A stretch of 64,000 bases of DNA from Saprospira grandis DSM 2844 (GTDB lineage: Bacteria; Bacteroidota; Bacteroidia; Chitinophagales; Saprospiraceae). Below the pieces are notes generated by a model that worked only from the letters and a program-made list of their open reading frames with translations, made no database searches and was not told the origin of the DNA. This document shows, in pieces, positions 24,097-61,975 of the stretch (its first letter is position 1; each line of letters opens with the position of its first letter). The DNA lies in the NCBI RefSeq assembly GCF_000275825.1, contig NZ_JH719942.1, forward strand, positions 1,060,988-1,124,987, read 5' to 3'. The position numbers and the translations under genes are program-made.

Positions 24097-24111
24097 GCTA
24101 ATTAAGATTTT

Positions 24112-33053: not shown

Positions 33054-33109
33054 ATCTCTCCCTCAGAAACCCAAAGAGCAATGGATAACTATTTCTGTTG
33101 CTCTTTTTT

Positions 33110-39905: not shown

Positions 39906-40196
39906 CTACCCAATCAATACAGTAGGAGCACCAGCCACTACGGCACCACCATGGCCACAAGAGTCGCCGATACGGGCAGCGGGTTTCCCCTCAATCATGA
40001 CCGTTCCGGAGCCAGAGGCAATAGAATCGCCTGCGCAGGCACAGACGGCAGAGTCGCCAAGGCGGGCGGCTGGAATTCCGGTAACCATAACGGTACCGGC
40101 ACCGCTAACAATGGGCCCACCTACATGAGGTGAAGGACCGGGGCAAACGGCGGGGCAAACGTGCATATCGCCAATTCGAGCAGAGGGCATTCCCAT
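39906..40196 (-). CDS. PAAR-domain spike-tip protein
   Basis: Three PAAR-like repeats (PSARIGD, PAARLGD, PAARIGD) in 96 aa. Confidence 0.85.
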   Translation of the reverse strand: MGMPSARIGDMHVCPAVCPGPSPHVGGPIVSGAGTVMVTGIPAARLGDSAVCACAGDSIASGSGTVMIEGKPAARIGDSCGHGGAVVAGAPTVLIG

Positions 40197-42062: not shown

Positions 42063-42098
42063 TTTTCTTTATTTATCTTCTAGTTAATTGAGTCAATT

Positions 42099-42287
42099 CT
42101 ATCGATTCATTTTGTACTCCCAAGCTTCCATTGCTCGGCGCACCGCTTCCTGAATCAGGATTTCTTTATCTTTTTCGGTCATGCCTTTTCCCTGTTCCTT
42201 TCCATCTTCTTTTCCCTGACCTTTGCCCCCAGCATTTTGTGCATTCACATTGGTGTTGACATTCATTTCTTTTACTGTTACTGCCAT
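42099..42287 (-). CDS. small hypothetical protein (62 aa) inside the contractile cluster
   Basis: ORF with a K/G/E-rich N-terminus and a helical C-terminus. Confidence 0.3.
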   Translation of the reverse strand: MAVTVKEMNVNTNVNAQNAGGKGQGKEDGKEQGKGMTEKDKEILIQEAVRRAMEAWEYKMNR

Positions 42288-42321
42288 AAGCTGTATATTT
42301 TTTTGCTGTTTTTAAGCAGGT

Positions 42322-42472
42322 TTTTTGGGGGCCTGCGGGCTTCGCCCGCCGCTATGTTGCAGGGCTCGCAAGCCTGCTCGGCCCTTCGCAAAATTTCGCT
42401 ACGCTCATTTTGCTTGGTCTGGCCCTACGGGCCACCCTTCCACAGCGCTAGGCCAAAAACGGCTTCGCTTAA
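42322..42472. repeat. GC-rich interspersed repeat inside the contractile cluster
   Basis: ttttgggggcctgcgggcttcgcccgccgctatgttgcagggctcgcaagcctgctcggccc... Confidence 0.6.
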
Positions 42473-43158
42473 TGAGCTACCACCTTAGAGAAAGCGTAAG
42501 AAAGTTCAATTTCTTGGACCAGCAAATCCTCTGAAGTAGAGTTGAGCGAGCTCAAACTCATTTTAGAGGGATAGGCAAAATTAAACTCCATAGAAATCAA
42601 AATTTGCGGCTTTCCAGATTTTGTCAAGTTGGGGTGCATTACATTTACCTGAATCCCCTTGAGCTTAATTTGCTCATTCCAAGAAGCCATGGCCTCAAAA
42701 CTTTCTTCACACCATTTGGTCCAAGGATCCGAGCTTTTAATGATATCGGGACGCACCAATCGCTTTAGCGTAATGGCCGAGTTTTTCATTTTGTCGGGCA
42801 AGTCAATGGGGTAATTGTAGCCCCCCTCATTATACGTCTTCTTTCCCTCCAAACCAATCTCCAAACCACTCACCTCAATAAAAGAGTTATGAATATTGGT
42901 ATCACCTGGCGTAGGCAAGCCATTAGCTCCGCCACCGTCTATCTTATTGATTGCCTTTTTCATCATTCCTCCAACCATTCCTCCTACAAAGGTATCTACA
43001 GCCCCTTTAGCAACTCCAGCCAAAAAGCTATTCCCTTCATGCTTCTGATCATACATCTGCACATCAAAATAGAAGGCAGGAATAGGTGAGGTCGTTTTTT
43101 CGTCCTCTTTCATGACTTCATCTAAGAAGCGCTCAAATGGGCTAATGGTATTATTCAT
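42469..43158 (-). CDS. tube-fold protein with a Gly-rich insertion (candidate tube initiator / Afp5- or Afp7-like, no LysM)
   Basis: PIPAFYFDVQMYDQ...SFIEVSGLEIGLEGKKTYNEGGYNYPIDLPDKMKNSAITLKRLV...ISMEFNFAYP parallels the gp19-like motifs of the two tube genes. Confidence 0.45.
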   Translation of the reverse strand: MNNTISPFERFLDEVMKEDEKTTSPIPAFYFDVQMYDQKHEGNSFLAGVAKGAVDTFVGGMVGGMMKKAINKIDGGGANGLPTPGDTNIHNSFIEVSGLEIGLEGKKTYNEGGYNYPIDLPDKMKNSAITLKRLVRPDIIKSSDPWTKWCEESFEAMASWNEQIKLKGIQVNVMHPNLTKSGKPQILISMEFNFAYPSKMSLSSLNSTSEDLLVQEIELSYAFSKVVAH

Positions 43159-43220
43159 ATCTTATTGGGATTATCTACAGCGATTGGTCTAAAAGTTAAT
43201 ATGCTAAGCGGTATTTTATC

Positions 43221-43736
43221 CTAACCGCCCACCTCCGTTTCAAAATGACGGAAGGCAAACTCCATTTCTTCTACAGCCACCTCATTTTCAGATTCGGCAT
43301 CAAAGTTAGAGGGAATATATTTTGTAATAAAGGCCTTTTCAAGTCGCCAGATAAACTGCGTCTCCATATTGTGGTCCAAAAGGTGGATCTCAATAGTTCG
43401 GCGAGAAGTATACTCTCGACTCACCGCTACCTGGTCAAACAAACGGCTCATTTGATCATCTTGAGAAAACGATCCTTTTTTAAGGGTAATACGGCTGTAC
43501 TGCAACATACCGGGCATGCGCTCCTTTCCAAAAAAGGGAGAATTACCATCGCGGTACTCAATCACCCCAATTTCAGCCTCCAAACCATCTACAGTTTGAA
43601 AAGACATTTCAATTGGACCAATAAACACCCGAAAGCTAAAGCGCGTTAGGGGCCAAGTCATTGTGGAATCTGAACTCATAACATCTATTTTTGAGAAAGC
43701 GGCTGCCCAAGTTAACTCGCTAAATACTAGGGCCAA
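43221..43736 (-). CDS. phage tail tube protein (gp19/Afp1-Afp5 family), paralog 2
   Basis: TRFSFRVFIGPIEMSFQTVDGLEAEIGVIEYRDGNSPFFGKERMPGMLQYSRITLKKG. Confidence 0.8.
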   Translation of the reverse strand: MALVFSELTWAAAFSKIDVMSSDSTMTWPLTRFSFRVFIGPIEMSFQTVDGLEAEIGVIEYRDGNSPFFGKERMPGMLQYSRITLKKGSFSQDDQMSRLFDQVAVSREYTSRRTIEIHLLDHNMETQFIWRLEKAFITKYIPSNFDAESENEVAVEEMEFAFRHFETEVGG

Positions 43737-43866
43737 GGCAAGATTTTTTTGGGCCTATGCCCTAAAAATAGCGCTTAGCGATACTGCCTTTCATTATCAA
43801 GGAGTTAAGGCTGCTTATAAGTTAAGCGCTTTAGGCTACTAAATTAAAGAAAAAATCTTGATAGCA

Positions 43867-43900
43867 CAAAAAAAACCTAGCAGGTTTTTACCTGCCAGGT
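43867..43900 (-). terminator. intrinsic terminator/attenuator immediately downstream of the major tube gene
   Basis: The minus strand reads ACCTGGCAGG-taaaa-ACCTGCTAGG (one G-U pair) followed by TTTTTTTT. Confidence 0.5.
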
Positions 43901-43927
43901 TTATTTTATTGCTAAGCTAAGTTAAAC

Positions 43928-44383
43928 TTATGCAGTTTCCATAGTCCACTCTTCGCAGCAGAACTCAAGTTCTTCGATAGCGACTTCAGAGTCAGCTTCT
44001 GCGTCAAAAGGAGTAGGAGTAAACTTAGTAACGAAAGCGTTGAGTAGCGTCCAAGTGAAAACGATCTCATCAGCTTCATTCATCAAGTGAATGATTACAG
44101 TACGGCGCTCAGTGTGTTGGTGGTCAACTGAAAGCTCTTTGTACCACTGATAGAGGTAGTCATCGCTCTGGAAAGTACCCTTCTTCAAGGTGATGTTGCT
44201 ATAAGACATCAAACCGGGACGCTTAGTCTTGTAGAAGTTGGTAGAGTTACCTGCACGGTACTCCATTACAGAAATCTCAGTCTCAAGACCTTCGATTGTC
44301 TGGAAGCCCAAAGTGTTGGGGATATTGTCAATCTCGATAGAGAAATAAAACTTAGGCAGTGGCCATTCTGTTGTTGCAGACAT
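43928..44383 (-). CDS. phage tail tube protein (gp19/Afp1 family), paralog 1
   Basis: PKFYFSIEIDNIPNTLGFQTIEGLETEISVMEYRAGNSTNFYKTKRPGLMSYSNITLKKG. Confidence 0.85.
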   Translation of the reverse strand: MSATTEWPLPKFYFSIEIDNIPNTLGFQTIEGLETEISVMEYRAGNSTNFYKTKRPGLMSYSNITLKKGTFQSDDYLYQWYKELSVDHQHTERRTVIIHLMNEADEIVFTWTLLNAFVTKFTPTPFDAEADSEVAIEELEFCCEEWTMETA

Positions 44384-44497
44384 GATATATGGCGTTTAAA
44401 AGTATGATCTAAATTTAAAATGTTGATGCTCTCCCGTTTGAGCCCAAGAGAAAGGCTAAAATGCTTTAGATAGTGATCTCTAAGTTAAGCACAAAGC

Positions 44498-45991
44498 TTA
44501 CTCAGCACCACCGGGCATTTTCTGCTGGAAAGTGATAACGATGAATTCAGCAGGACGAGAGATAGCTACTTTTACAGAAACCTTCATGTAACCATCTAGG
44601 ATATCCTGAGGAGTCATAGTTGTACCCAAACCAACCTCAACTTGGAAAGCCTGATCTTCAGTAGCACCTACCAAAGCACCTGCTTGCCACTGGCTACGCA
44701 AGAAAGAACCAATCATTGATTTAACTGCGATCCAAGTGTTAGCGTCATTGGGACGGAATACGAAAGGCTCACAAGCGAACTTCACAGACTGCTCCAACAT
44801 GATCATAGTACGACGTACGTTGATGTAGCGCCAGTCTTGGCTGTTACCGTCTAGCGTACGAGCACCCCATACCAAAGTACCTTTTCCTACGAAAGGACGG
44901 ATGGCATTGATTGCTTTACCGCTCAAGGGCAAGTTCAAGTCTTCTTGCTCAGTAGCAGAAATGTTTACAGTAGGTCCAGTTACAGAAGAAACTGATACGT
45001 TAGCAGGCGCTTTGAATACACCTACAGTGCTATCTACCAAAGAGTAAAGACCAGCTACAGCTCCAGAAGGAGGCAATACGTTCAACATATCGCGCATTTG
45101 ACCCAATACATCATTGTATACGGGGCTTACCGCCTTCATGATGTTGTGTACAGCAGTTACGTTAGCATCAGCGTCAGCCATCTTAGCGATTTCAGCTTTG
45201 ATCAACTCACCTTTTTCAGCTTTAACGAAACCAGCAGCTACGTTGTCATCTACTTCTTTGTTAAGCAACTCAACGAAACCTTCTAGGTTAGCAACATTAG
45301 TATAGTCAAACTCATCAGCTTGAACAACAGTAGCTTTCAACCAAGGGTAGTAAGCTGCACCGAAGTCTAGGAAGTTGTTGCCATAAGCCTCACGAGCGCA
45401 AGTTACAACATCATCATCTAGCATGCTGCGAGATTCGTTACCGTTCCATACGTCTAGGATAGCGAAGCGGCTACGAGTGTCAGCACCACAATGCTTCAAC
45501 ATTGCTTGTTGTACTGTACCACAGTCACCTTCTTCCAAAGAGATAGCATCGGGAACTACAAGCAAAGTAGGCTCTTGCTCCTTCAACAAAGCAGTGATAC
45601 CACCACCGTTCTCAGTACCCACTAGGGTCTTGGGAGAAACGTCGTCGTTGTATCCACCAACAGAAACGATGTAGCAAGTTCCACCGCCGTTAGCGTAGAA
45701 CATTTGAAGGCTACGGAACAACATGTAGTTACCGGCATCAACAGAAACGGTATAGTTGTCACCTTCAGCATCAACGTTGAAAGTAGTTTTGGGAGCACCA
45801 CCAAAGTAAGATAGGTACTCAACCAATGAAGTAATGCGCATTGGCGTGTTGGTCAAGTCGCGCTTACCAGCAGCGGCTCTCTCTGTGTGGCCAATGAAAG
45901 CAGGGATAGCAGTTCCTACTGCTACAACAGAATTCGAAAAGGCGCTTTTTTCTTCGATATAAACGCCTGGTGTTGCATACTGTTTTGCCAT
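44498..45991 (-). CDS. contractile tail sheath protein
   Basis: The N-terminal TPGVYIEE motif is a hallmark of phage and eCIS sheath proteins. 497 aa. Confidence 0.85.
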   Translation of the reverse strand: MAKQYATPGVYIEEKSAFSNSVVAVGTAIPAFIGHTERAAAGKRDLTNTPMRITSLVEYLSYFGGAPKTTFNVDAEGDNYTVSVDAGNYMLFRSLQMFYANGGGTCYIVSVGGYNDDVSPKTLVGTENGGGITALLKEQEPTLLVVPDAISLEEGDCGTVQQAMLKHCGADTRSRFAILDVWNGNESRSMLDDDVVTCAREAYGNNFLDFGAAYYPWLKATVVQADEFDYTNVANLEGFVELLNKEVDDNVAAGFVKAEKGELIKAEIAKMADADANVTAVHNIMKAVSPVYNDVLGQMRDMLNVLPPSGAVAGLYSLVDSTVGVFKAPANVSVSSVTGPTVNISATEQEDLNLPLSGKAINAIRPFVGKGTLVWGARTLDGNSQDWRYINVRRTMIMLEQSVKFACEPFVFRPNDANTWIAVKSMIGSFLRSQWQAGALVGATEDQAFQVEVGLGTTMTPQDILDGYMKVSVKVAISRPAEFIVITFQQKMPGGAE

Positions 45992-46046
45992 GATTTAATT
46001 TATTTTGAAAAGTTTAATTGATTTACAAATTTATTTTGTCATCTGA

Positions 46047-47174
46047 TTACAAATATACAATTATTTCGGAAAACACAGCATTCTCAACGTTAAAATCTGT
46101 TTTTAATATTGATTTTGCTGAATGGTTAGGTAAATCTGTAATCCATTCGATTCCATTTTTGCCTCTTTTGGTCCGAAGCTTAAAGCGGCTCAGCTGTTTT
46201 TCCTTAAAAGGAATGGGCGCTGAAGTTTTGACCAAAACGGCCAGTTCGCCAGAAGGCATAAGCACCTCCTCGGCCTCTTCAAAGTCTACTGTTTCGCCAG
46301 CTCGGCCATTATCGTAGGCCTCATGTCCTTTGTGCTGCCTATCCTCATTCATTTCTACTATATAGTAGTGCCAAGGTAAAGCCCTAGCAGGGAAATGGAT
46401 GTTATACTCTCTTTTAGACAACAACTTTCCCTGCTCATCAAAAAAGCGGTAAGGGCTGTCATCCTCCTTATCGATATAAATATCCACCACGCCCCAAATT
46501 CCGGCAGTTCCCTCAGGAGCCAAATAAAAAGTATACTCTTCCAAGCCGTCTAGCTGCAAAATATACTTTCCGGCTGGGGCATCAGGCATAACCACATCTA
46601 CATGGGCATTTTCGCCTTCCTGCTCCAAAAAGAAATAAGACTGGCCCAACTCATCTACCACCTCGATTTCCGCATCCTCCTCTTCATCATCAAATTCGTA
46701 GCGGAAAACAGGGCCTTCAAGTGCTAAGCGATCCATTTCAGAAACCAACTCATCATTAGACAAATTGCCCTCCTCATCTTCAATCTTATCTTCGGCCCGA
46801 TTTGTAAAGTGATAAATATAATCACCAAACTCATAAGGGAGGCCCGTATAGTTAAGGAAGAAAGCATCTTCTACCTTCATCCAAAAACTTAACTTTAAAG
46901 GTTTTTCCAAACTTTCTAAAGCCGGCCCTCCAGAAACTGTCTCGCCATAACCAATCAGCAAATTATTGCCCTCAAAGGCCGTTTTAAGCTGATTTTGCTT
47001 TAGGCGAAAAACCGTATCGGAAGTAGGACTAAGAACTACATCTTTACAGATCTGCTCATCAAAGTAATCGTGCAGGATCGCTATGTTTAATAGCTGATTA
47101 TAGCGAGTTTGGATGTTCAGCAACATATGATGCTCCATCGGATTTCCTCGCCTGCTAAATTTACGTCTCTTCAT
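46047..47174 (-). CDS. hypothetical acidic protein between the cap candidate and the sheath (eCIS-associated, function unknown)
   Basis: 375 aa, D/E-rich, no P-loop. The alternative start MEHHM is 12 codons in. Confidence 0.4.
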   Translation of the reverse strand: MKRRKFSRRGNPMEHHMLLNIQTRYNQLLNIAILHDYFDEQICKDVVLSPTSDTVFRLKQNQLKTAFEGNNLLIGYGETVSGGPALESLEKPLKLSFWMKVEDAFFLNYTGLPYEFGDYIYHFTNRAEDKIEDEEGNLSNDELVSEMDRLALEGPVFRYEFDDEEEDAEIEVVDELGQSYFFLEQEGENAHVDVVMPDAPAGKYILQLDGLEEYTFYLAPEGTAGIWGVVDIYIDKEDDSPYRFFDEQGKLLSKREYNIHFPARALPWHYYIVEMNEDRQHKGHEAYDNGRAGETVDFEEAEEVLMPSGELAVLVKTSAPIPFKEKQLSRFKLRTKRGKNGIEWITDLPNHSAKSILKTDFNVENAVFSEIIVYL

Positions 47175-47339
47175 TAAGCTCTTCTGCTTTAAGTCCCTTA
47201 AAATTAGAGAATTTAATTTTGGTCTGCAAAGTTTATTCGCAGTTTTTTTTCTTTTTTTTTAATAAAAGCTAAAATTTAGGCCCAGTTGGCATTTTTCGTA
47301 GACCTAGCTAATATCACACTGTCATTAGTTAAGCGACAA

Positions 47340-47482
47340 AGCCCAACTACAGCCGCCCCATTTGGCCTAGCGATGTGCAGGGGGGGCCGCAGGCCAGACC
47401 GAGCAGGCAAAGCCTGCGCAGGGCCGAGCGAACAGCGAGCCCCGAAACGTAGCGCCTGCCGAAGGCAGGAGGCCCCAAACCT
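47340..47482. repeat. GC-rich interspersed repeat inside the contractile cluster
   Basis: gcctagcgatgtgcagggggggccgcaggccagaccgagcagg...gccgagcgaacagcgagccccgaaacgtagcgcctgccgaaggcaggaggccccaaa. Confidence 0.6.
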
Positions 47483-47484
47483 TC

Positions 47485-48045
47485 CTAAATCTTGCGAATA
47501 GAAGGAATTTCTGGCTCGGGCTTTTTATGCTCAATCGGAATTGTTTTGAAGCGATAGAGCACCGAAGGCAAATACTTGGCCCCTACCCCATTCCAAACAT
47601 TAGAAATATCGCGAAAATCTGGCGATACCATTTCGGCCACCAAACGACTGAGGCTGCCCGAAAGTGCGGGCGTATTTTGCTCATTAAAAACGCCTTGGCG
47701 GCTTTGGAAAAAAGCGATCACCGAGCTAACAAACTTAAGGCCCTCCAAATAATTTTCATTGGTAAAATAGGCCGAGAACAACATATATATATTGACTTCA
47801 ACTGGGGGGGTCACCTTAGTAAAATTCCCTCGCTTATTGGGCTGATAAGTCGCCGTGCTGCTCTTATTGCGCTCGGCCTCAATGTTAATGATCGTCATCA
47901 CGATCTTATCGGCCTCTTGCACCGCCATCGAGCCATCGGCATTAACCAAATGAGAAATGATGACTTTCTCTTCTAAAATATTGTGTTTAGACTGCAAAAA
48001 GCGGTTGAGCTCGCCCACCACCGCCGTGACAACTTTATCAATCAT
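47485..48045 (-). CDS. DUF4255-like protein (candidate Afp16/Pvc16-type tube/sheath cap)
   Basis: Size ~186 aa and position at the 5' end of the cluster fit. The N-terminus MIDKVVTAVVGELNRFL resembles cap proteins as I recall them. Confidence 0.4.
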   Translation of the reverse strand: MIDKVVTAVVGELNRFLQSKHNILEEKVIISHLVNADGSMAVQEADKIVMTIINIEAERNKSSTATYQPNKRGNFTKVTPPVEVNIYMLFSAYFTNENYLEGLKFVSSVIAFFQSRQGVFNEQNTPALSGSLSRLVAEMVSPDFRDISNVWNGVGAKYLPSVLYRFKTIPIEHKKPEPEIPSIRKI

Positions 48046-48308: not shown

Positions 48309-48357
48309 GCTCTATTTTTGTTAGCCTCGATATCGTACAAGGTTGTTTTTGATTTTT

Positions 48358-48530
48358 ATTTTTTGGGGCTGCCCCTCCTTTCAGTCGGGTCGGGCTGTGT
48401 CGCAGCTCGCAGGTCTGCTCGGCCCTGCGCTTTTTTCGCTTCGCTCAAAAAGCTGGGTCTGGCCTTCGGCCACTGCTATCCATCCCTCAGCCTGCGGCGG
48501 CTTTGCCGCCTGCTCGCCGCAAAAGGACCT
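48358..48530. repeat. GC-rich interspersed repeat
   Basis: Same architecture as 3524-3686, with ...cctgcggcggctttgccgcctgctcgccgc substituted. Confidence 0.65.
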
Positions 48531-53716: not shown

Positions 53717-53917
53717 ATATCCGTAGCATCTAAGGTTCTGAAGCAAGTTTGGCAATTAAAAGTATAGTGTGTTGGCCAAAATTTGCTAGTACAAGCCCAA
53801 ATTAAAGCTTTTTTCAAAATTAACCTTAAAATTCTAGGGCCTTTTCTAAACAAAACCTTAAAGGTCTATCAATCGTCTACCTTTCAAAGTTTTAGGGCCA
53901 AATGTTTTCTAGATTTT

Positions 53918-54470
53918 CTTTTGGGGCTGCCCCAGCCTTTGGCTGGGTCGGGCTGTGTCAGGGCTCGCAGGTCTGCTCGGCCCTGCGCGGGCTTTGCCCG
54001 CTGGGTCTGCGGCTTTGCCGCCCCCTTTTCCATCCCTCAGCCGGGGCGCTGCGCGCCTTGGCAGGCGGCTTTGCCGCCTGCTATATGAATGAGCTGAGGC
54101 CCGGAGGGCCGAAGGCTATGCAGCTAGTGTTGGCCCCCAAGGCCAACGCTAGCTGCCCCCAGGCGGAGGCGGCTTTGGAGGGTCTTTTGCCTGAAATGCA
54201 ATATGTTGAGGGCCAATTTTAATAAAAAGCAAGAAAAAAAGTGGCCAGCCGCCTACCGCCGGCCGGGTCCAATCAGCCCGCAGGGCTGTCTAAACAAAAT
54301 GCCATTTTGCAGCGGCTCTGCCGCTGCAAGGGCCTAGCGCTGTGCAGGGGTGGCCGTTAGGCCAGACCCAAGCCGCCAAAGGCGGCTGCAGGGCCGAGCA
54401 GGCCTGCGAGCCCCGAAACATAGCGCCGCAGCAAAGCTGCGGAGGCCCCAAAAGAAAAAAGTCTAGCCCT
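53918..54470. repeat. composite ~550-bp repeat arm (three GC-rich modules plus a unique spacer), arm A of an inverted pair
   Basis: The reverse complement of 59340-59885 aligns along the whole length. Confidence 0.75.
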
Positions 54471-54520
54471 TAAAAGAGCTAGACCATTTTCAGTGCATCA
54501 AACGCAATGGGGATAATAAA

Positions 54521-57205
54521 TTAGTGTTGGATAACCAGCTTTTGGCTCTTGATGAGCTCCCCAGCCTTGTTGCGGAGCAAGACCACATAATGGCCATTGG
54601 TCCAAGACTGAATATTGAGCTCTAGGCTTCCTTCTGTAGGCAATCCTTGACGCTGAAACAAAGGCTTACCTTCCAAATTGAGGACCTCTACTTGTAGATC
54701 GCCCTTTGAGGCTGCAGCAAAACGCATTTGAAGCATCGTTGCGGCAGGGTTGGGGGTCACCAAAAGGTAGTTGCCCGTAGTAAAGGTAAATCCACCACGG
54801 TTGGGCAAGGGAGTAGAACCACCAGCATCACAATCCTGAATCAATTGGAAATTGCCCAAGCACTCCTGCTGACAGCCATTGGCATCAATTAGTTGGTAAG
54901 TATATTGGCCAGCAGCTAGGCCCGTAAACTGGCCGCTATTGTTGTTTTCTACGGTTTGCGTAGTCAAATTGGCCAAGCTAATTTGGAAAGGGGCCGTTCC
55001 GCCACTGAGGCCCAACTGCAAGCTTCCGTCATTATTATCGCAGCCAGGCTCTTGGCTACTTAGCACAGACAAGCTGATGGGGTCGGGCTCTACTACGGTT
55101 AGTTGTGTTTGTTCGGTACAACCATTTTGGTCCACCACCTCTACAGTATAAGTGCCTGCACAAAGCTGATCAATTTGATCTGTTGTGGCGCCATTGCTCC
55201 AGCTATAGCTGTAGCCAGCACTACCCGTAGCCACTACGGTAGCACTTCCGTCGCAATCGCCAGCACAGCTTACTGCGGTTGCAGCAGAGGTAAGGCTAAA
55301 GCCAGGCGTGCCCATCAAGACAAAAGTGGTATCATAAGAGCAACCATTGGCATCAGTAAGAGAAAGTTGGTAGGTTCCTTCGGCCAATCCAGTAAGAGGC
55401 GCATTAACGGCAACCATTTGACCATTTGCCGTTAGGGTATAAGGAGCCGTTCCGCCATCTAGATTTAGGCTAATGCTTCCGTTATTTTGGCCACAGCTAG
55501 GCGCTGTAAGCCCTGTAAAGTAAAGGTCTAGAGGTGCTGGGCTAATCACTTCTATGGGCTCCACATAAGAGCAGCCATTAGCATCTAGCACCACCACTTG
55601 ATAATTGCCCGCTGCCAATTGGTCGAACTGTGGACTTGTAGAGAAGTTGCCTCCAACAGAATAGATATAAGGAGCGGTTCCGCCAGTAGCCATAATATGG
55701 ATACTTCCGCCATTTCCGGCAGTTGCACAAAGTTGATTTTCTACATCAACTTGAGCATTTAGGGGTTGAACTTGGCCATCAATTTCAAAAGAGAGGCTAG
55801 AGCAATTGGGTTCACAACCGTTTACATCCTCTACCCAAATGCCATATTGGCCAGCAGTAAGATTGACAAAAACGCCAGAATTATTTTGGAAAAGCTCTCC
55901 AGTGGTCCAGTTGATCACAGAATACTGATAAGGAGCGCTACCGCCTGTAGCGTTAATAATAGCTTGGCCATCGTTGGTTGTACAGGCCAAATCTTGAGTA
56001 GCGTCTAGGCTCACATTTAGGCCAGCGCAGCTGCCACCGCCTGTAGTTCCGCCCACTACGTTAATCGAGTAGGTGTAGGTGTTTTGGCCCACCAAAGGAC
56101 AGGCATCATCATGAACATTGAGGGTAAAGCTATGAAAACCTACATCAGCTGCCGTAGGCGTCCAGCAAAACAAGCCATTTTGGAAAGGGAAACCAGAAGT
56201 GGTAAAGACTGCTGCGGGAATTGCCCCATTATAGCTAATAAAGCTATGTTGTCCAGAATCGGGATCATTAGAAAAGACCTCAAAGCAAAGTTGCTGACCA
56301 ACGACAATTGTGGTATCAAAAACTTGGCTACCGTTCATTCCAGTCAATGTGGGAGCCTGGTTTTGGCACTGCACCACCGTAAACTGGATATCACGAACAA
56401 TTTCTCCGATTTTTTGGCCATTTCTAAACTCTTCTACTAAAACGCAGAGTACGCCCACCTGCACCATAGAAGGTACAAAGCTAAGGGCTCCAGTTGCGGG
56501 GTCAATGTTTACGCCATTTTGCGTAAGCAAAGGAGAGCTTGCAGAAATTCCCTGAGCGGCATTATAAGTTACCGGTACATTAGCGGCATCATAGCAATTG
56601 GTTAGTGAATAGCGCAAAGAATCGCCATCCATATCCACTGCTCCATGATTATAAAAAACCGACTGTCCTACACAGGCAAAAGGCGTAGGGTTATTCAAAA
56701 AGGTAGGCGAGTTATTACAATTGCTCAAGGCAGTATTCAGCTCTGTTTCAATGTACATCATATTAGAGCCAGGCGTATTGAGCGTTGTAATTGCATTATT
56801 GCGACAACAAAGGCTCCAGCTAGCGGTCCAGTCTGTACAAGTTGTGGGTAGTGTAACTACTGTTTCATAAGTATATTTTTCAATTCCATAAATACCGCCA
56901 CCGCCATTACAGGCCGTACCCACAATACCCGGACAAGAGGGCGTAATTTCCACTACTCCAGCCTGCATCAAGGTGCTGCTGATTGTTCCACAATTGGGAG
57001 AACTTAGTTCTAGGGTGTAGCTATTGGCAGCATTGATACCATTACAATCTCTATAAAATTGTAGGCTAAACTTATATTGTCCATTACCTAAACAGACATA
57101 AGTCAAATCTGCACCCATAGCATGTGTGGCCTTTGCTTCTTGCGAGGAAAAGCCCAAGAGGAGAAGCATAAAGAACAGGCCTGTTCTTAGCATAGATGTT
57201 TGCAT
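54521..57205 (-). CDS. SprB-repeat cell-surface protein with T9SS C-terminal sorting domain
   Basis: At least five ~45-aa units (GGTAPY.YS...G.Y...V.D.NGC). C-terminus ...GHYVVLLRNKAGELIKSQKLVIQH. Signal peptide. Confidence 0.7.
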   Translation of the reverse strand: MQTSMLRTGLFFMLLLLGFSSQEAKATHAMGADLTYVCLGNGQYKFSLQFYRDCNGINAANSYTLELSSPNCGTISSTLMQAGVVEITPSCPGIVGTACNGGGGIYGIEKYTYETVVTLPTTCTDWTASWSLCCRNNAITTLNTPGSNMMYIETELNTALSNCNNSPTFLNNPTPFACVGQSVFYNHGAVDMDGDSLRYSLTNCYDAANVPVTYNAAQGISASSPLLTQNGVNIDPATGALSFVPSMVQVGVLCVLVEEFRNGQKIGEIVRDIQFTVVQCQNQAPTLTGMNGSQVFDTTIVVGQQLCFEVFSNDPDSGQHSFISYNGAIPAAVFTTSGFPFQNGLFCWTPTAADVGFHSFTLNVHDDACPLVGQNTYTYSINVVGGTTGGGSCAGLNVSLDATQDLACTTNDGQAIINATGGSAPYQYSVINWTTGELFQNNSGVFVNLTAGQYGIWVEDVNGCEPNCSSLSFEIDGQVQPLNAQVDVENQLCATAGNGGSIHIMATGGTAPYIYSVGGNFSTSPQFDQLAAGNYQVVVLDANGCSYVEPIEVISPAPLDLYFTGLTAPSCGQNNGSISLNLDGGTAPYTLTANGQMVAVNAPLTGLAEGTYQLSLTDANGCSYDTTFVLMGTPGFSLTSAATAVSCAGDCDGSATVVATGSAGYSYSWSNGATTDQIDQLCAGTYTVEVVDQNGCTEQTQLTVVEPDPISLSVLSSQEPGCDNNDGSLQLGLSGGTAPFQISLANLTTQTVENNNSGQFTGLAAGQYTYQLIDANGCQQECLGNFQLIQDCDAGGSTPLPNRGGFTFTTGNYLLVTPNPAATMLQMRFAAASKGDLQVEVLNLEGKPLFQRQGLPTEGSLELNIQSWTNGHYVVLLRNKAGELIKSQKLVIQH

Positions 57206-57403
57206 AAAAATTTGGTTTTAATGCGTTTGATGATCTGTTAAGATAACGGTTTGTTAAGATATTTAGCTGCTTTAGTGAAACATAATTCCTTGTTTAGGAT
57301 AGGAGTCAGCTCATAAATTAACACTCGTTAAATTCCATAATTTCTTAGGAGATATTTTTTTTAGCCACTACATTGTGCTTCTAATCACAGTAGCCCTCCA
57401 CTG

Positions 57404-57844
57404 ATGAAAAACTTAAATAACATACAGCCCAAAAAATCTGCATTCTCCTGCCTAGGACGAATGCTTTTGCTGTTGTTATTTCTCTTTAATGCTGGACTAG
57501 GATTTGCAGCCCAGCCCATTCAGCAACAAGGCCATCAGTTGAGTTTTAATAAAAAGCTTAGTAGTGACTGGCAGCAACATTTATATGATTTCGATGGCGA
57601 GGAAAAAGACGCCAATGAAGAAGAAGTAGACAGCCAAGAAGCTGAAGAATTAAAACAGCTCTTGCTTTGGTCCAAAGACGTTCTTCCCTCCTTTTCTAGA
57701 TGGTCTCCTCCCCTCCCCTCTTTCCACTGTTTTTTCATTTCCAAGCCGCACCCTTCTGCTTGCCGCTTTCGGCCCAATACCGAGGCCCAAAAGCAGCAAA
57801 AACTCTATTTGCGCTTGCACTCCCTTAAATTAGATTTGGCTTAA
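57404..57844 (+). CDS. hypothetical protein (weak call)
   Basis: ORF with a signal-like N-terminus and acidic middle. No recognisable domain. Confidence 0.2.
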   Translation: MKNLNNIQPKKSAFSCLGRMLLLLLFLFNAGLGFAAQPIQQQGHQLSFNKKLSSDWQQHLYDFDGEEKDANEEEVDSQEAEELKQLLLWSKDVLPSFSRWSPPLPSFHCFFISKPHPSACRFRPNTEAQKQQKLYLRLHSLKLDLA

Positions 57845-57982
57845 GTCGATCTGCTTCATAGCAGATACGCCTTTGTATTGATGTACAGCTTACTGTACAT
57901 CCAATAACCTATTTCCTTTCTTTATTGCTAAAGATTGGGCAGTCCTCTCCTTGTCCAATACTTAGACTTAAGCCTCCTAATC

Positions 57983-58966
57983 ATGAATTTTCTTTTCGAT
58001 ATGTCTATGGTGACAGGCAATATCCTATCGCCTCCCGTTCTTTTCTTCTTTTTGGGCCTTATTTCCGTTGCCCTCAAATCTGACCTCGAAATTCCGCAAC
58101 CACTTCCCAAGCTCTTCTCGCTCTATCTCTTGATGGATATTGGCTTGCATGGTGGACATGAGCTTTATCATAGTGGTTTTTCTTGGGAGTTGGTCACGGT
58201 CCTTGGCGCCTGTTTCCTTATGGCCTCTATCATCCCTATTTATAGCTTTTTTATTCTTAGATCTCGCTTTGGATCCGCAGATGCTGCGGCTATTGCCGCC
58301 ACCTTTGGTTCTATTAGTGCCGTTACCTTTATTACCGGAATTTCTTTTCTTGAAATCCAAGAGGTGCCCTATAAAGGATATATGGTAGCTGGTATGGCCC
58401 TGATGGAATCGCCCGCTATCATTATTGGGGTCTTGCTCTATAATATTTATGGCAAAAAAGAGCAGAAATCAAAGAAGAAGACTAATTGGGGACATATTCT
58501 CCGCGATGCCTTTTTTAATGGCTCTATTATGCTATTAGTCGGGGCCCTACTCATTGGTATTCTTTCTGGAGATAAGGGCTGGCACGATTTCCAACCCTTT
58601 GATAGCATCTTTAAAGGAATGCTCTGCTTCTACTTGCTCGACAATGGTATTGTGGCCGCTCGCCGCCTAAAAGCTCTGCGCGGAAACCTAGGGTTCTTGC
58701 TTTCTTTTAGTATCCTGATGCCTTTGTTTAATGCCGCTTTAGGGATTGGCATCGCCTACCTCATTGGCCTAAGCAAAGGAAATGCCCTCTTGTTCTGTCT
58801 GCTCACCGCTAGTGCTTCCTATATCGCCGTTCCAGCCGCTATGCGCTTGGCTATCCCCAAATCTAATCCCGCCTTTACGGTTCCTGTGGCCCTAGGTATT
58901 GTTTTCCCTTTCAACGTAATTGTAGGCATTCCGCTCTACTATTATCTCATCCAACAAATTCTCTAA
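57983..58966 (+). CDS. sbtA: SbtA-like sodium-dependent bicarbonate transporter (DUF897 family)
   Basis: About 10-TM inverted-repeat protein. The downstream PII-like gene supports an sbtA-sbtB pair. Confidence 0.6.
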   Translation: MNFLFDMSMVTGNILSPPVLFFFLGLISVALKSDLEIPQPLPKLFSLYLLMDIGLHGGHELYHSGFSWELVTVLGACFLMASIIPIYSFFILRSRFGSADAAAIAATFGSISAVTFITGISFLEIQEVPYKGYMVAGMALMESPAIIIGVLLYNIYGKKEQKSKKKTNWGHILRDAFFNGSIMLLVGALLIGILSGDKGWHDFQPFDSIFKGMLCFYLLDNGIVAARRLKALRGNLGFLLSFSILMPLFNAALGIGIAYLIGLSKGNALLFCLLTASASYIAVPAAMRLAIPKSNPAFTVPVALGIVFPFNVIVGIPLYYYLIQQIL

Positions 58967-58968
58967 TT

Positions 58969-59268
58969 ATGAATATCGTCAAATCTGTCAAAATAGAAGT
59001 CATTCTCGAAAGTATCCAAGTAGAGCGCTTTATTGAAATGCTAGAAGAGGCCGGTGCCCATGGCTATACGCTTTTTGGCAATATTTCGGGAAAGGGCCAA
59101 AATGGCATGCTCGATCATAACTGCCGAGCCAAAATTTTCGCTAATAGCTATCTCTTTACCATTTGTTCTGAAGAGGTGGCCCAAAATATTTTGCCCCAAA
59201 TTGCCCTCTTTTTAGAGGATTGCTCGGGGAGTTGTTTCACCTCTGAGGTGAATCACCTAAAGCTGTAA
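58969..59268 (+). CDS. sbtB: PII-like signalling protein SbtB
   Basis: About 99 aa with a PII-like fold pattern (KIEVILESIQVERFIEMLEEAGAHGYTLF...). Start is 3 bp after the sbtA stop. Confidence 0.6.
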   Translation: MNIVKSVKIEVILESIQVERFIEMLEEAGAHGYTLFGNISGKGQNGMLDHNCRAKIFANSYLFTICSEEVAQNILPQIALFLEDCSGSCFTSEVNHLKL

Positions 59269-59339
59269 AAGGGCGTTTTTATCCCTTTTCTTTTTTGTAG
59301 CTTGGGAGCAGCAGTTTACTGTTGCTCCCTTTTTTTATT

Positions 59340-59885
59340 CTTTTCTTTTGGGGCCTCCACAGCTTTGCTGCGGCGCTATGTTTCGGGGCTCGCAAGCCTG
59401 CTCGGCCCTTCGCAAAATTTCGCTTTGCTCATTTTGCTCGGTCTGGCCTACGGCCACCCCTACACAGCGCTAGGCCCTTGCAGCGGCAAAGCCGCTGCAA
59501 AATGGCATTTTGTTCAGACAGCCCTGCGGGCTGATTGGACCCGGCCGGCGGTAGGCGGCTGGCCACTTTCTTCTCTGCTTGAATTTAAATTTGGCCCTCA
59601 ATATATTGCATTTCAGGCAAAAGGCCCTCCAAAGCCGCCTCCGCCTGGGGGCAGCTAGCGTTGGCCTTGGGGGCCAACACTAGCTGCATGGCCTTCGGCC
59701 CTTCGGGCCTCAGCTTATACATCCTGCAGGCGGCAAAGCCGCCGCAAAGGCGCGCAGCGCCTCGGATGAGGGATGGAAAAGGGGGCGGCGAAGCCGCAGA
59801 CCAAGGCCGTCAGGCCGAAGGGCCGAGCAGACCTGCGAGCCCTGACACAGCCCGACCCAGCCGAAGGCTGGGGCAGCCCCAAAAT
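59340..59885. repeat. composite ~550-bp repeat arm, arm B of the inverted pair
   Basis: Reverse complement of 53918-54470. Confidence 0.75.
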
Positions 59886-59947
59886 AAAAAAACACCTAGC
59901 CCCTAAAAAGAGACCAGATGTTATATATCATCTAAAAAAGAGGAAAA

Positions 59948-61975
59948 CTACTCCTTTTCTTCTGCATCCTCCTCGCCCAAATCGGGCTTAGGGTCTTGCA
60001 AAGTATCTACGCCATGGTTTTCGCTTACCGCCTCGCCGTTCTCGCCGGGCAGCTCATCAAAAATGCGTTTACCAATCAATTGCTCTACAGCATCCTTATT
60101 GAGGACCTCCTTATTGAGGAGTTCATTGGCCAACAACTCTAGCTCTTGGCGTTTTTCTCTCAGCAAGTTTTTGGCCCGTTCATATTGGGAGTCGATCAGC
60201 TTGCGGGTTTCTTGGTCAATTAGGTCTGCAGTAGCCTCAGAATAAGGCTTACTAAAGCCGCCGCCTTCCTTCATCATACCATAATAAGAGACATTGCCCA
60301 CACGCTTATTCATTCCATAAACCGTAATCATAGAGTAAGCCATACGGGTCACATGATCGAGATCAGATTGAGCGCCAGTAGAAATTTTACCAAAGATGAT
60401 TTCCTCTGCAGCGCGTCCCCCCATCGTCATACACATACGGTCTAGCAGTTGCTCTACGGTAGTAATGTGTTGTTCTTTGGGCAAATATTGGGCATAACCG
60501 AGGGCTGCGATACCGCGGGGAACAATAGTCACCTTAACCAAAGGCATGGCATTTTCTAAAAACCAGCCGCAAAGCGTATGTCCAGCTTCATGATAAGCAA
60601 TCACTCGTTTTTCTTCTGGAGAAATCAGTTTATTCTTTTTCTCCAAACCGCCAATCACTCGATCAATAGCGTCATTAAAGTCATTCATTTCTACAAACTG
60701 CTTCCCTCGGCGGGCAGCAATTAGGGCTGCTTCATTACAGACATTGGCAATTTCGGCACCAGCAAAACCGGGAGTTTGGGTGGCCAAATTCTTGGCATCC
60801 ACATCTCCAGAAATTTTGATATTTTTGAGATGAACGGCAAAAATTTGCTCTCGTCCCACCAAATCAGGCTTATCAATAGAAATTTGGCGATCGAAACGAC
60901 CGGGGCGCAAAAGCGCTTGGTCCAAAATATCGGGACGGTTAGTGGCCGCCATCATAATCACGCCTTTTTCGGTGCTAAAGCCATCCATTTCTACCAACAA
61001 CTGGTTAAGCGTATTCTCTCTTTCGTCATTGCCGCCCTGCATAGCGCCACGTCCACGGGCACGACCAATAGCGTCAATTTCATCAATAAAGATAATACAG
61101 GGGGCTTTTTCTCGGGCTTGGCGGAAGAGGTCACGGACCCTAGAGGCCCCTACTCCAACAAACATCTCGACAAAATCGGAGCCAGAGATACTAAAGAAAG
61201 GCACGCCAGCCTCGCCAGCAACGGCTTTGGCCAAAAGCGTTTTACCGGTACCTGGAGGGCCTACCAGAAGCACCCCCTTAGGGATTTTACCACCTAGAGC
61301 AGTATATTTTTTGGGTTTTTTCAAGAAATCCACTACTTCCATAACTTCTTCCTTGGCCTCATCTAGGCCAGCAACATCTTTAAAGCTAGCATTTACTTTA
61401 CCGTCCTTATCGAACAAAGTAGCTTTAGAGCGGCCAATATTAAAGATTTGGGAGCCGGGGCCAGCACCACCGCCACCTACGCGGCGCATAATAAAGATCC
61501 AGATAATAATCAAAATGGCGAAAGGCAGAATCCAGCTCAGCAAGCCGCCGATATAATCGTAGCGGGTTTCATTTTTCTGGTTAATGCTAAAATTGGGATC
61601 ATCCTGAGCAATTTTTTGCTCTAGCGCGTCTAATTTTTTGAGGAAATACTCCATATCGCCCACCGTATAGCTATAATTGGGGGCATCATTATTAAAGGAA
61701 GAGCTGGGCAGTTTGCTATACTCCTCCTTTTCCAAGGCGTCTTCAGTTAGGTAAACCTCTGCTTGACTTTTATTGACGATGATAATTTTATCAACATCTT
61801 TTTGAGCGATAATCGTCTCTAACTCATTCCAACTTAGGTCTTTGGTTTTGGGGCTCACCCAAATCAAGTTCACACTAATGAGCAAGAGAGCAAGAAGGCC
61901 ATAAATCCAATAATAGTTGAACTTGGGGCCGTTGTTCTTCTCTCCCTGTGGTTGGTTATTGGGATTGTTTTGCAT
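59948..61975 (-). CDS. ftsH: ATP-dependent zinc metalloprotease FtsH
   Basis: N-terminal TM helices, AAA module ([23 protein letters not shown]...), HEAGH zinc site. Confidence 0.95.

What the first reader, a model, noticed from the sequence alone, without database searches (positions are those of the whole stretch)
53918..59885. About 550-bp composite inverted repeats flanking a ~4.9-kb segment (SprB-repeat T9SS protein, small ORF, sbtA-sbtB)
53918-54470 and 59340-59885 are reverse complements of each other over their whole length. Each arm has three GC-rich modules plus a shared unique spacer containing ...CTGAAATGCAATAT[G/A]TTGAGGGCCAA.... Long inverted repeats can drive inversion of the enclosed segment. 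Alternatively, the structure marks a composite transposon-like unit or a recent duplication.
Basis: seen in the sequence. Interest (0 to 1): 0.5.

Follow-up and report, generated by a model that had tools for sequence, protein, structure and literature searches.

The report
Inverted pair of intergenic repeat dimers
The two 550-bp inverted arms are real, but each is a tail-to-tail pair of an abundant GC-rich intergenic repeat of Saprospira that sits behind gene ends; one arm was copied onto the other by gene conversion, and five assemblies show no flipped or mobile segment.

Summary
Window 53914-54460 and 59341-59889 are reverse complements (89% identity; blocks of 62-294 nt at 92-97%). The window is Saprospira grandis DSM 2844.

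Each arm is non-coding. It is a tail-to-tail dimer of two units of a ~130-nt nested-palindrome repeat that occurs about once per 3 kb in every Saprospira sequence examined. Unit "heads" lie next to gene stop codons or terminator T-tracts. They face opposite ways here because they follow oppositely oriented genes. Only the ~230-nt middle (extended tails plus an AT-rich junction) is specific to the two arms.

Gene order and orientation of the enclosed segment are the same in all five assemblies: three S. grandis strains, one metagenome contig, and Saprospira sp. CCB-QB6. CCB-QB6 has the right-arm dimer, but its left site holds other repeat units and a 42-nt tandem array. The long inverted repeat is therefore specific to S. 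grandis.

Arm alignments are mosaics, grouping by position in some blocks and by strain in others, with hairpin cassettes swapped. This indicates repeated gene conversion.

There is no recombinase or transposase, and no variation in presence or orientation. Verdict: an ordinary product of REP/BIME-like repeat dynamics. Rare RecA-mediated inversion is not excluded.

The parts
53914..54460 (.). Left arm: a non-coding dimer of two family units, tail to tail, with its own inverted ends
   Evidence: only short, non-conserved ORFs
53914..54044 (+). Left arm, outer unit (subtype A; head TTTTGGGGCTGCCCC ... CTCAGCC)
   Evidence: nhmmer hit 53913-54044 (+), E=7e-24; seed alignment
54045..54216 (+). Extended tail of the outer unit: extra GC-rich hairpins ending in ...TGAAATGCAATATGTTGAGGGCCAA. 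Specific to the two arms
   Evidence: no other match in the window or in 889 kb of Saprospira metagenome loci; groups by position among strains
54217..54240 (.). AT-rich junction between the two tails. The DSM 2844 left copy is the outlier (71-74% against 95-97% among the other three arms)
54241..54329 (-). Extended tail of the inner unit, ending in a terminator-like hairpin plus T-run (54266-54245, - strand)
54330..54460 (-). Left arm, inner unit (subtype B; head TTTTGGGGCCTCCGCAGC ... GCGCTAGGCC), just downstream of the SprB-like gene
   Evidence: nhmmer hit 54459-54330 (-), E=6e-25; a unit occupies the orthologous position in CCB-QB6 (L209 17541-17667)
54460..54485 (-). Terminator-like hairpin plus T-tract of the SprB-like gene. 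Its T-tract runs into the head of the inner unit
54521..57205 (-). Enclosed gene: SprB-repeat protein with a T9SS C-terminal sorting domain (894 aa)
   Evidence: Pfam PF13573 and PF18962, TIGR04183
57404..57844 (+). Enclosed 146-aa ORF with no family match. Conserved in all Saprospira loci examined
57935..58966 (+). Enclosed sbtA (Sbt_1 bicarbonate-transporter family). Annotated as 327 aa in public records
   Evidence: Pfam PF05982, E=8e-118
58969..59268 (+). Enclosed P-II-like sbtB (99 aa)
   Evidence: Pfam PF00543
59304..59329 (+). Terminator-like hairpin plus T-tract downstream of sbtB, directly before the right arm
59341..59889 (.). Right arm: the same dimer in reverse orientation. This is the ancestral copy; the whole dimer, unique middle included, is conserved in Saprospira sp. 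CCB-QB6
59341..59476 (+). Right arm, inner unit (subtype B)
   Evidence: nhmmer hit, E=3e-28
59477..59761 (.). Right arm middle: tail B (59477-59565), AT-rich junction (59566-59590), tail A (59591-59761)
59762..59889 (-). Right arm, outer unit. In DSM 2844 it carries the A1 variant of the left arm; all other genomes have variant A2 here
   Evidence: nhmmer hit; 8-arm alignment
59891..59922 (-). Terminator-like hairpin plus T-tract downstream of ftsH, directly before the outer head of the right arm
59948..61975 (-). Flanking gene ftsH (675 aa), convergent with sbtB
   Evidence: Pfam PF01434 and PF00004
52682..53755 (-). Flanking gene of unknown function (357-aa ORF, annotated as 346 aa). Its 5' end faces the left arm

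Best explanation
The arms are two paralogous copies of a non-coding dimer. Each dimer is built from two units of a very abundant, genus-wide, GC-rich intergenic repeat of Saprospira.

Each unit is about 130 nt. It is a degenerate long palindrome made of nested complementary blocks interrupted by small, exchangeable hairpin cassettes, and it often carries a tail of further hairpins. Units sit in 3' intergenic DNA with the 'head' (T-run + GGGGC) abutting a stop codon or a terminator T-tract.

The enclosed segment ends with genes that point outwards in opposite directions: the SprB-like gene on the minus strand and sbtB on the plus strand. The units behind them are therefore inverted relative to each other by construction.

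The right-hand dimer lies between the convergent genes sbtB and ftsH and is ancestral. In the S. grandis lineage its interior (both tails plus the junction) was copied into the left site. The left site already held inverted family units that could serve as homology anchors. This copying is inferred to be homology-directed repair or gene conversion.

Since then the arms have exchanged short conversion tracts with each other and with other family members. One such tract, in DSM 2844 only, made the outer units alike and so extended the inverted repeat to full length.

The structure is a by-product of repeat dynamics. It is not a programmed inversion switch or a transposon.

Shown: anatomy, copy number, positional bias, synteny and orientation in five assemblies, absence of the left copy in CCB-QB6, and mosaic similarity. 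Inferred: the conversion mechanism and its direction.
For: Identity of the source:
- A spurious ORF in the left arm is 100% identical to SapgrDRAFT_0917 of S. grandis DSM 2844. Its only close database relatives are SGRA_1327 and SGRA_1333 of strain Lewin, which lie in that strain's two arms (locus).

The repeat family:
- The arm's terminal modules recur about 17 more times in the window.
- An nhmmer profile finds 21 units in 64 kb, and about one per 3 kb in strain Lewin, strain WH, CCB-QB6 and an ENA contig.
- More than 120 contigs of one metagenome carry the family's core motif.
- Among 329 units the head and tail pentamers covary almost perfectly (GGCCT/AGGCC 145, GGCTG/CAGCC 117, GGCCC/GGGCC 39, GGCTT/AAGCC 15).
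- For 91 units, a nested structure has 98.6% of cells paired against 79.6% in shuffles. Its covariation score is 0.474 against 0.136 (0/500 shuffles reach it) and at most 0.104 for slid partners. No pair changes on one side only, which points to DNA-level complementarity.
- Heads face gene 3' ends in 142 of 243 units, at a median of 17 nt, with 81 within 30 nt.
- Terminator-like hairpins sit directly before three of the four heads in the arms.

The middle is specific to the arms:
- It has 0 matches elsewhere in the window, 0 in 889 kb of Saprospira metagenome loci that give 454 matches to the ends, and 0 in two collection-wide exact-pattern scans.

Synteny and orientation:
- Strain Lewin, strain WH CP110854 (Nanopore hybrid assembly per PMC10508125), ENA contig L212 and CCB-QB6 all have the window's order and orientation.
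- CCB-QB6 keeps the whole right dimer. Its left site has a B unit, a 42-nt x 6.9 tandem array and another B unit, and only 35-51-nt inverted repeats link its two sites.

Mosaic similarity:
- Tail A groups by position (98.3% and 96.5% against 91-94%).
- Tail B plus the inner unit groups by strain (97.6% and 98.4% against 94-95%).
- There are 12 sites that group by position, 10 by strain and 4 in the cross pattern.
- The same hairpin cassette is in the left arm of DSM 2844 and the right arm of Lewin.
- The outer unit of the DSM 2844 right arm matches the left arm rather than its orthologues.

Age and turnover of the units:
- Units are old residents. All 7 window units in regions syntenic with another Saprospira species have a unit at the same position.
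- Those orthologous units differ by whole-cassette or whole-subtype replacement.
Against: - 'The middle occurs only in the two arms' therefore rests on partial sampling and on annotated spurious ORFs.
- The direction of copying (right to left) rests on a single outgroup, CCB-QB6. Loss or replacement of a left copy in CCB-QB6 is equally compatible with that one comparison.
- Consensus assemblies cannot show minority orientations.
- Perfect identity runs of 35-65 nt exceed the minimum that RecA needs (the threshold is from my own knowledge). The evident gene conversion between the arms implies they do pair, so occasional crossovers giving inversion are plausible.
- The function of the repeat family and how it spreads are unknown.
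Confidence: 0.75

Rival explanations
1. Recombination-driven invertible segment. The arms mediate RecA-dependent (or otherwise catalysed) flip-flop of the 4.9-kb segment, giving population heterogeneity in expression of the SprB-like adhesin or sbtAB.
For: The arms are about 550 bp long with perfect runs up to 65 nt. Strain-specific shared substitutions and swapped cassettes show that the arms have recombined with each other since the strains diverged.
Against: All five assemblies show one orientation, across species-level divergence of about 82%. There is no recombinase gene in or next to the segment. The arms lie downstream of terminators rather than at promoters, so inversion would not obviously rewire expression. 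About 10% divergence should depress homologous crossover (from my own knowledge of mismatch-repair anti-recombination). In strains Lewin and WH the outer modules are only about 64% alike.
Confidence: 0.08
2. The 545-bp dimer is itself a mobile non-autonomous element (a large MITE with its own terminal inverted repeats) that inserted independently at the two sites.
For: Each arm has inverted ends (26 nt at 85% and 48 nt at 81%). The building-block family is highly repeated. A separate 88-91-nt module nested in some units is 85-100% identical between copies, which suggests recent movement of at least some modules.
Against: Only two copies of the middle are detectable. No convincing target-site duplication is seen at the arm ends. 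In CCB-QB6 both ends of the left site are already occupied by family units, which fits replacement in situ rather than insertion into an empty site. Units are positionally conserved between species.
Confidence: 0.1
3. Composite transposon or genomic islet. The arms are the ends of a unit that brought in the SprB-like gene, the 146-aa ORF and sbtAB.
For: Inverted repeats bracket a small set of accessory-looking genes. In more distant Saprospiraceae, sbtAB lies in other contexts.
Against: The arms encode no transposase. The same genes lie between the same neighbours in CCB-QB6, which lacks the full left arm. GC content of the segment matches its surroundings. The right arm follows normal terminators of convergent genes.
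Confidence: 0.03
4. The arm-specific middle is a functional non-coding RNA or cis-regulatory element present in two copies and kept similar by selection.
For: The middle of the right arm is conserved in CCB-QB6 at about the level of neighbouring genes. One of its hairpins shows compensatory double changes (TGTTGGCC/GGCCAACG in DSM 2844, GGTTGGCC/GGCCAACC in Lewin, TTTTGGCC/GGCCAAAA in CCB-QB6).
Against: No Rfam family matches, even at relaxed thresholds. The left copy is absent from CCB-QB6. The hairpins resemble the generic cassettes of the family, and compensatory change with no wobble intermediates is equally expected from DNA-level palindrome correction or conversion.
Confidence: 0.04

Closest known systems
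REP / BIME elements of enterobacteria and REPIN doublets of Pseudomonas
   Same: GC-rich imperfect palindromes that are strictly extragenic. They occur at hundreds to thousands of copies, mostly just 3' of genes or between convergent genes, and often as clusters of units in alternating orientation. The two halves of a unit are complementary and change together. (The properties of REP/BIME/REPIN are from my own knowledge. The Saprospira data are.)
   Different: The Saprospira unit is longer (about 130 nt plus tails) and modular, with exchangeable hairpin cassettes and optional inserts. It has a fixed head-to-stop-codon polarity. No RAYT (Y1 transposase) association could be tested. There is no sequence similarity to REP.
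BOX elements of Streptococcus pneumoniae and other modular small repeats (ERIC, Correia/CREE, RUP)
   Same: Non-coding, modular intergenic repeats made of conserved end modules plus a variable number of internal hairpin modules, with complementary ends (from my own knowledge).
   Different: Different sequence, phylum and copy density (about 1 per 3 kb here). No target-site duplication is evident. Units are positionally conserved between species, so they appear largely immobile now.
Inversions between long inverted repeats (rrn operons, IS copies, prophages) by homologous recombination
   Same: Two arms of about 0.5 kb in inverted orientation, 4.9 kb apart, that demonstrably exchange sequence.
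   Different: No inverted isolate or assembly was found (5 of 5 collinear). The arms are about 10% diverged and much shorter than typical inversion substrates.
Site-specific invertons (phase-variable invertible promoters or shufflons, for example in Bacteroides)
   Same: Only the geometry: inverted repeats flanking a segment that includes a surface-protein gene.
   Different: Invertons have short inverted repeats (about 10-30 bp), a nearby serine or tyrosine recombinase, and an enclosed promoter or alternative coding ends. None of these is present.

Membership tests
Site-specific inverton / phase-variable invertible segment | Inverted repeats flank the segment | tested here: met
Site-specific inverton / phase-variable invertible segment | A dedicated recombinase gene in or next to the segment | tested here: not met
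   Pfam and NCBIfam scans of all enclosed and flanking ORFs found no recombinase or integrase
Site-specific inverton / phase-variable invertible segment | Both orientations observed in sequence data | tested here: not met
   5 of 5 assemblies are collinear. Read-level data could not be examined.
Composite transposon | The arms are IS copies that encode a transposase | tested here: not met
   Only short ORFs that are not conserved between the arms. The arms are made of non-coding repeat units.
Composite transposon | The unit is absent, or elsewhere, in related genomes; target-site duplication outside the arms | tested here: not met
   Same genes and same neighbours in CCB-QB6, which lacks the full left arm. 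No duplication is evident at the arm ends.
MITE (the 545-bp dimer as a mobile unit) | Terminal inverted repeats | tested here: met
   53914-53939 against 54433-54458 (85%) and 53939-53986 against 54388-54435 (81%)
MITE (the 545-bp dimer as a mobile unit) | Many dispersed copies with target-site duplications | tested here: not met
   The middle was found only in the two arms. Sampling of complete genomes was incomplete.
MITE (the 545-bp dimer as a mobile unit) | A cognate autonomous element or transposase in the genome | not testable with these tools
   No whole-genome access to any Saprospira genome
REP/BIME/REPIN-like extragenic palindromic repeats (the ~130-nt unit) | Short GC-rich palindromic units, extragenic and in high copy number | tested here: met
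   21 units in 64 kb, about 1 per 3 kb in five loci; all lie between long ORFs
REP/BIME/REPIN-like extragenic palindromic repeats (the ~130-nt unit) | The two halves are complementary and co-vary | tested here: met
   98.6% of cells paired; 413 cells with a change on both sides against 139 in shuffles; 0/500 shuffles reach the observed score
REP/BIME/REPIN-like extragenic palindromic repeats (the ~130-nt unit) | Location at gene 3' ends or between convergent genes | tested here: met
   The head faces a gene 3' end in 142 of 243 units, at a median of 17 nt. Terminator-like hairpins precede three of the four heads in the arms.
REP/BIME/REPIN-like extragenic palindromic repeats (the ~130-nt unit) | Association with a RAYT (REP-associated Y1 transposase) | not testable with these tools
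   Requires a whole-genome protein scan
Known structured RNA family (Rfam) | A match to a curated covariance model | tested here: not met
   Only two tRNAs at gathering score in the window. Nothing meaningful at E<=1 on the left arm or on two other units.
Inverted segmental duplication / duplicative gene conversion | The arms share sequence not found elsewhere and are each other's closest relatives | tested here: met
   Arm ends are 96-97% identical to each other but 72-82% identical to other units.
Inverted segmental duplication / duplicative gene conversion | One copy is missing in an outgroup with conserved synteny | tested here: met
   CCB-QB6 has the right dimer but not the left. This rests on a single outgroup.

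The most novel reading that the evidence does not exclude
The arms expose an apparently undescribed, genus-wide repeat system. It consists of about 130-nt nested-palindrome units, roughly 1,400 per genome if the sampled density of one per 3 kb holds, which would be about 4-5% of the DNA. The units are docked head-first onto stop codons and terminator T-tracts and are positionally stable between species. Their internal hairpin cassettes, and even whole subtypes, are continually overwritten by short-tract ectopic gene conversion. The 550-bp inverted repeat is one visible product of that conversion. In the strongest version of this reading, the units act as 3'-UTR or terminator-associated structures, and the arm pair occasionally inverts the adhesin/sbtAB segment.
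Probability: 0.3. Interest if true: 0.5.

Novelty: new member of a known kind. Interest (0 to 1): 0.3.

Why it matters
The flagged inverted repeat matters little in itself. It should not be annotated as an inverton, a transposon or an island boundary.

It has practical relevance as a 0.55-kb inverted repeat that breaks every short-read assembly of this locus. It is also a possible substrate for rare rearrangement next to ftsH.

The more useful by-product is the repeat family. It is a very dense, structured, polarity-constrained intergenic repeat in a Bacteroidota predator. It matches no Rfam family, and three full-text searches found no description of it. It shows clear evidence of cassette-level gene conversion between dispersed copies.

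This gives a tractable system for asking how REP-like elements are maintained and homogenised outside the Proteobacteria. It would also explain many spurious 'hypothetical proteins' in Saprospira annotations, such as SapgrDRAFT_0917, SGRA_1327 and SGRA_1333.

Tried and rejected
- Exact-pattern scan of genome contigs with the arm-specific motif gave 0 hits. The source genome is not in that collection.
- An FtsH-based locus search in genome contigs returned only relatives at 68% identity or less, too distant for synteny. Both genome scans were then spent.
- Exact-pattern scan of metagenome contigs with a conserved 25-mer from the arm middle gave 0 hits.
- Exact-protein look-ups for sbtB and ftsH returned Logan short-read contigs that all end inside the arms, so they say nothing about orientation. 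The 357-aa ORF is not on record. ENA contig L214 also stops in the arm.
- The nearest non-Saprospira sbtA loci (L207, L208; 68% nucleotide identity) have other neighbours and no repeats, so they do not help polarise events. The 146-aa ORF is not similar to the ORF upstream of sbtA in L207.
- Rfam at gathering score and at E<=1 gave no credible family.
- I looked for a conserved ORF in the arms. A 43-44-aa frame is open in both, but it spans the most diverged part. I treated it as chance.
- I looked for target-site duplications at the arm ends. There is only an ambiguous CTAG on three of the four sides, which I rejected as evidence.
- Three literature searches for a description of Saprospira repeats found nothing.
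- One strand folding failed because the sequences exceeded the length limit. I replaced it with a ViennaRNA script.

Full report
**Observation**

The inverted repeat is real. The repeat finder reports four collinear inverted blocks between 53914-54458 and 59341-59889: 294 nt at 93%, 74 nt at 96%, 69 nt at 97% and 62 nt at 92%. A global alignment of the two arms gives 499 matches, 60 mismatches and 39 gap columns, with perfect runs of up to 65 nt. The quoted motif is present in both arms. The arms are GC-rich islands (0.58-0.62) in DNA of about 0.45 GC.

The flanking genes are a 357-aa ORF of unknown function and ftsH.

**Source and comparators**

A spurious 106-aa ORF in the left arm is 100% identical to SapgrDRAFT_0917 of Saprospira grandis DSM 2844. 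Its only close relatives in 5.8 billion proteins are SGRA_1327 and SGRA_1333 of S. grandis str. Lewin. These two ORFs lie in the left and right arms of the Lewin locus (L086).

I then fetched the same locus from four other sources:
- S. grandis str. Lewin (L086).
- S. grandis WH, CP110854 (L210). This is a Nanopore/Illumina hybrid assembly according to PMC10508125.
- A 39-kb ENA metagenome contig (L212).
- Saprospira sp. CCB-QB6, CP116808 (L209). It is only 81-83% identical at the DNA level, so it is another species.

**What the arms are made of**

A blastn of the left arm against the window shows that its two ends (arm positions about 1-165 and 418-547) recur about 17 more times. Positions about 170-417 match only the other arm.

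Alignment of 19 window copies defines a unit. In order, it has:
- a T-run and GGGGC;
- a variable hairpin;
- a conserved core (GCTCGC...GCTCGGCCCT);
- a second variable hairpin;
- GGTCTG;
- a third hairpin;
- a 3' block ending in CAGCC, AGGCC or GGGCC.

Many units continue into a tail of further hairpins.

A profile of this unit finds 21 copies in the 64-kb window, and one per 2.8-3.1 kb in each of the other four Saprospira loci. A 22-nt core motif hits more than 120 contigs of a single metagenome. That metagenome contains a Saprospira that is 80-86% identical to the window in syntenic stretches.

Each arm is therefore two units placed tail to tail. A subtype-A unit points inward from the outer end. 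A subtype-B unit points inward from the inner end. Their extended tails meet at a 24-nt AT-rich junction.

**Structure of the unit**

Among 329 units, the pentamer after the head GG and the pentamer at the 3' end are complementary in all but a handful of cases. Four matched variants occur: 145, 117, 39 and 15 copies.

RNAalifold on 91 units predicts nested long-range helices, which means the unit is a degenerate long palindrome with hairpins inserted. For that structure:
- 98.6% of cells pair, against 79.6% in shuffles;
- 413 cells have a change on both sides, against 139 in shuffles;
- the covariation score is 0.474, against 0.136 in shuffles (0/500 reach it) and at most 0.104 when partners are slid.

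No variable pair shows a one-sided (wobble) change. This argues for complementarity at the DNA level, or for inheritance within subfamilies, rather than RNA-level selection. No Rfam family matches.

**Position and polarity**

Using crude ORF calls on all loci, the head faces the 3' end of a gene in 142 of 243 units. The median distance is 17 nt, and 81 units lie within 30 nt. Tails come that close to a 3' end only 13 times.

At the locus itself, terminator-like hairpins with T-tracts lie immediately before three of the four heads: after the SprB-like gene, after sbtB and after ftsH. Because the SprB-like gene and sbtB point outwards in opposite directions, the units behind them are necessarily inverted relative to each other. 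This geometry explains why the arms are inverted without invoking inversion.

**Is the segment invertible or mobile?**

All five assemblies have the same order and relative orientation: GH18, the 346-aa gene, the left site, the SprB-like gene (-), the 146-aa ORF (+), sbtA (+), sbtB (+), the right site, ftsH (-), rsfS. No recombinase or transposase is present, and the arms have no conserved ORF.

In CCB-QB6 the right-hand dimer is conserved, including its unique middle. The left site instead holds a B unit, a 42-nt x 6.9 tandem array and another B unit. Only 35-51-nt inverted repeats connect the two CCB-QB6 sites. The same genes therefore sit in the same place without the long inverted repeat, which rules out a composite transposon. 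The long inverted repeat is specific to S. grandis.

The arm middle has no match in 889 kb of metagenomic Saprospira DNA, which gives 454 matches to the arm ends. It also has no match in two collection-wide exact scans.

**History of the arms**

The four-arm and eight-arm alignments are mosaics:
- Tail A groups by position: left with left at 98.3%, right with right at 96.5%, against 91-94% between sides.
- Tail B plus the inner unit groups by strain: 97.6% and 98.4% within strains, against 94-95%.
- The junction of the DSM 2844 left arm is an outlier.
- Informative sites split 12 by position, 10 by strain and 4 in the cross pattern.
- The inner hairpin cassette has three versions. The CCB-QB6-like version is in the DSM 2844 right arm. 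A second is in the DSM 2844 left arm and the Lewin right arm. A third is in the Lewin left arm, both WH arms and the right arm of the ENA contig.
- The outer unit of the right arm is subtype A2 in CCB-QB6, Lewin, WH and the ENA contig. In DSM 2844 it is the A1 variant of the left arm. The repeat therefore extends 'over the whole length' only in this strain; in Lewin the outer units are about 64% alike.

These patterns indicate repeated short-tract gene conversion between the arms, and with other family members.

The same process is visible elsewhere. All seven window units that lie in regions syntenic with the other Saprospira species have a unit at the orthologous position. Orthologous units nevertheless differ by clean replacement of a cassette, or of an entire subtype, between otherwise identical backbones.

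The most economical account has four steps:
1. Both sites carried inward-pointing units in the ancestor.
2. The interior of the right dimer was copied into the left site in the S. grandis lineage, using the pre-existing units as homology anchors.
3. Later conversion tracts shuffled cassettes between the arms.
4. One such tract, in DSM 2844 only, homogenised the outer units.

The direction of copying rests on a single outgroup.

**What remains open**

Consensus assemblies cannot exclude a minority inverted subpopulation. The arms clearly pair during recombination, and identity runs of 35-65 nt are long enough for RecA (from my own knowledge). I therefore keep a small probability for occasional inversion. 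I could not scan complete Saprospira genomes for further copies of the arm middle or for a RAYT-type transposase. The function of the units is inferred only by analogy with REP/BIME elements; candidates are a 3'-UTR structure, a terminator accessory, or none.

**Verdict**

The feature is an ordinary consequence of a REP/BIME-like repeat family, although that family appears to be undescribed and is unusually dense and modular. Interest in the flagged feature itself is low. The family is a moderately interesting by-product.

Noticed in passing
window 21-150, 3518-3660, 4472-4596, 6976-7112, 10539-10668, 13149-13326, 15371-15508, 18037-18180, 18978-19116, 24110-24250, 25050-25187, 33106-33236, 35237-35386, 39783-39908, 42320-42457, 47361-47479, 48355-48494: Seventeen further units of the same ~130-nt GC-rich nested-palindrome repeat family, about one per 3 kb, all intergenic. 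Many start within a few nt of a stop codon. No Rfam match, and no description found in the searchable literature.
   Followed up: yes
L086 16081-16171 (Lewin right arm); also L210 12107-12197 and L212 12107-12197: In strains Lewin and WH and the ENA contig, the first hairpin of the right arm's outer unit is replaced by an 88-91-nt module (GGGTTGAAACCC ... ATGAGGGTTAAAACCCTCAT). The module recurs at least 10 times at 86-100% identity in metagenomic Saprospira loci, almost always nested at the same position of subtype-A units. There is none in the 64-kb window. It may be a recently active nested element or an optional module.
   Followed up: partly
L209 17750-18039 (Saprospira sp. CCB-QB6, left site): A 42-nt x 6.9 tandem repeat array lies between two inverted family units, exactly where S. 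grandis has the arm-specific middle.
   Followed up: partly
L086 ~3579-5059, against window ~48830: Strain Lewin carries a ~1.5-kb insertion with an rve-family integrase (ORFs of 140 and 251 aa) that is absent from DSM 2844. It lies next to a family unit, upstream of the GH18 genes.
   Followed up: no
window 4430-4600 against L091 6000-6175; window 47345-47490 against L086 2095-2240: Units at orthologous positions differ by wholesale replacement. One is subtype B in DSM 2844 and subtype A in the metagenomic species, with the tail conserved. Another has a single hairpin cassette swapped between two S. grandis strains, with 100%-identical flanking backbone.
   Followed up: partly
window 40218-48045 (- strand): A contractile-injection-system or phage-tail-like gene set: a VgrG-like Phage_base_V protein (40218-42062), a tail sheath (44498-45991) and Pvc16_N (47485-48045). 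It may relate to Saprospira rhapidosomes or predation.
   Followed up: partly
window 19985-23070 (- strand): Three tandem paralogous genes (327, 325 and 327 aa), all DUF6976 (E about 1e-115).
   Followed up: partly
window 7957-9991 (- strand): Three tandem 180-aa ORFs. Two have weak matches to the T9SS C-terminal sorting domain.
   Followed up: partly
window 13413-13484 and 13533-13604 (- strand): Two tandem tRNA genes with identical Rfam scores (64.1 bits). A family unit with an extra internal insert lies just upstream, at 13149-13326.
   Followed up: no
window 57935-58966: The mechanical sbtA ORF (343 aa, TTG start) is longer than the 327-aa product in public annotations, so the real start is probably 16 codons downstream.
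   Followed up: no
window 53902-54222; L086 10001-10450 and 15827-16072: GC-rich repeat units generate spurious annotated 'hypothetical proteins' in public Saprospira genomes (SapgrDRAFT_0917, SGRA_1327, SGRA_1333).
   Followed up: yes
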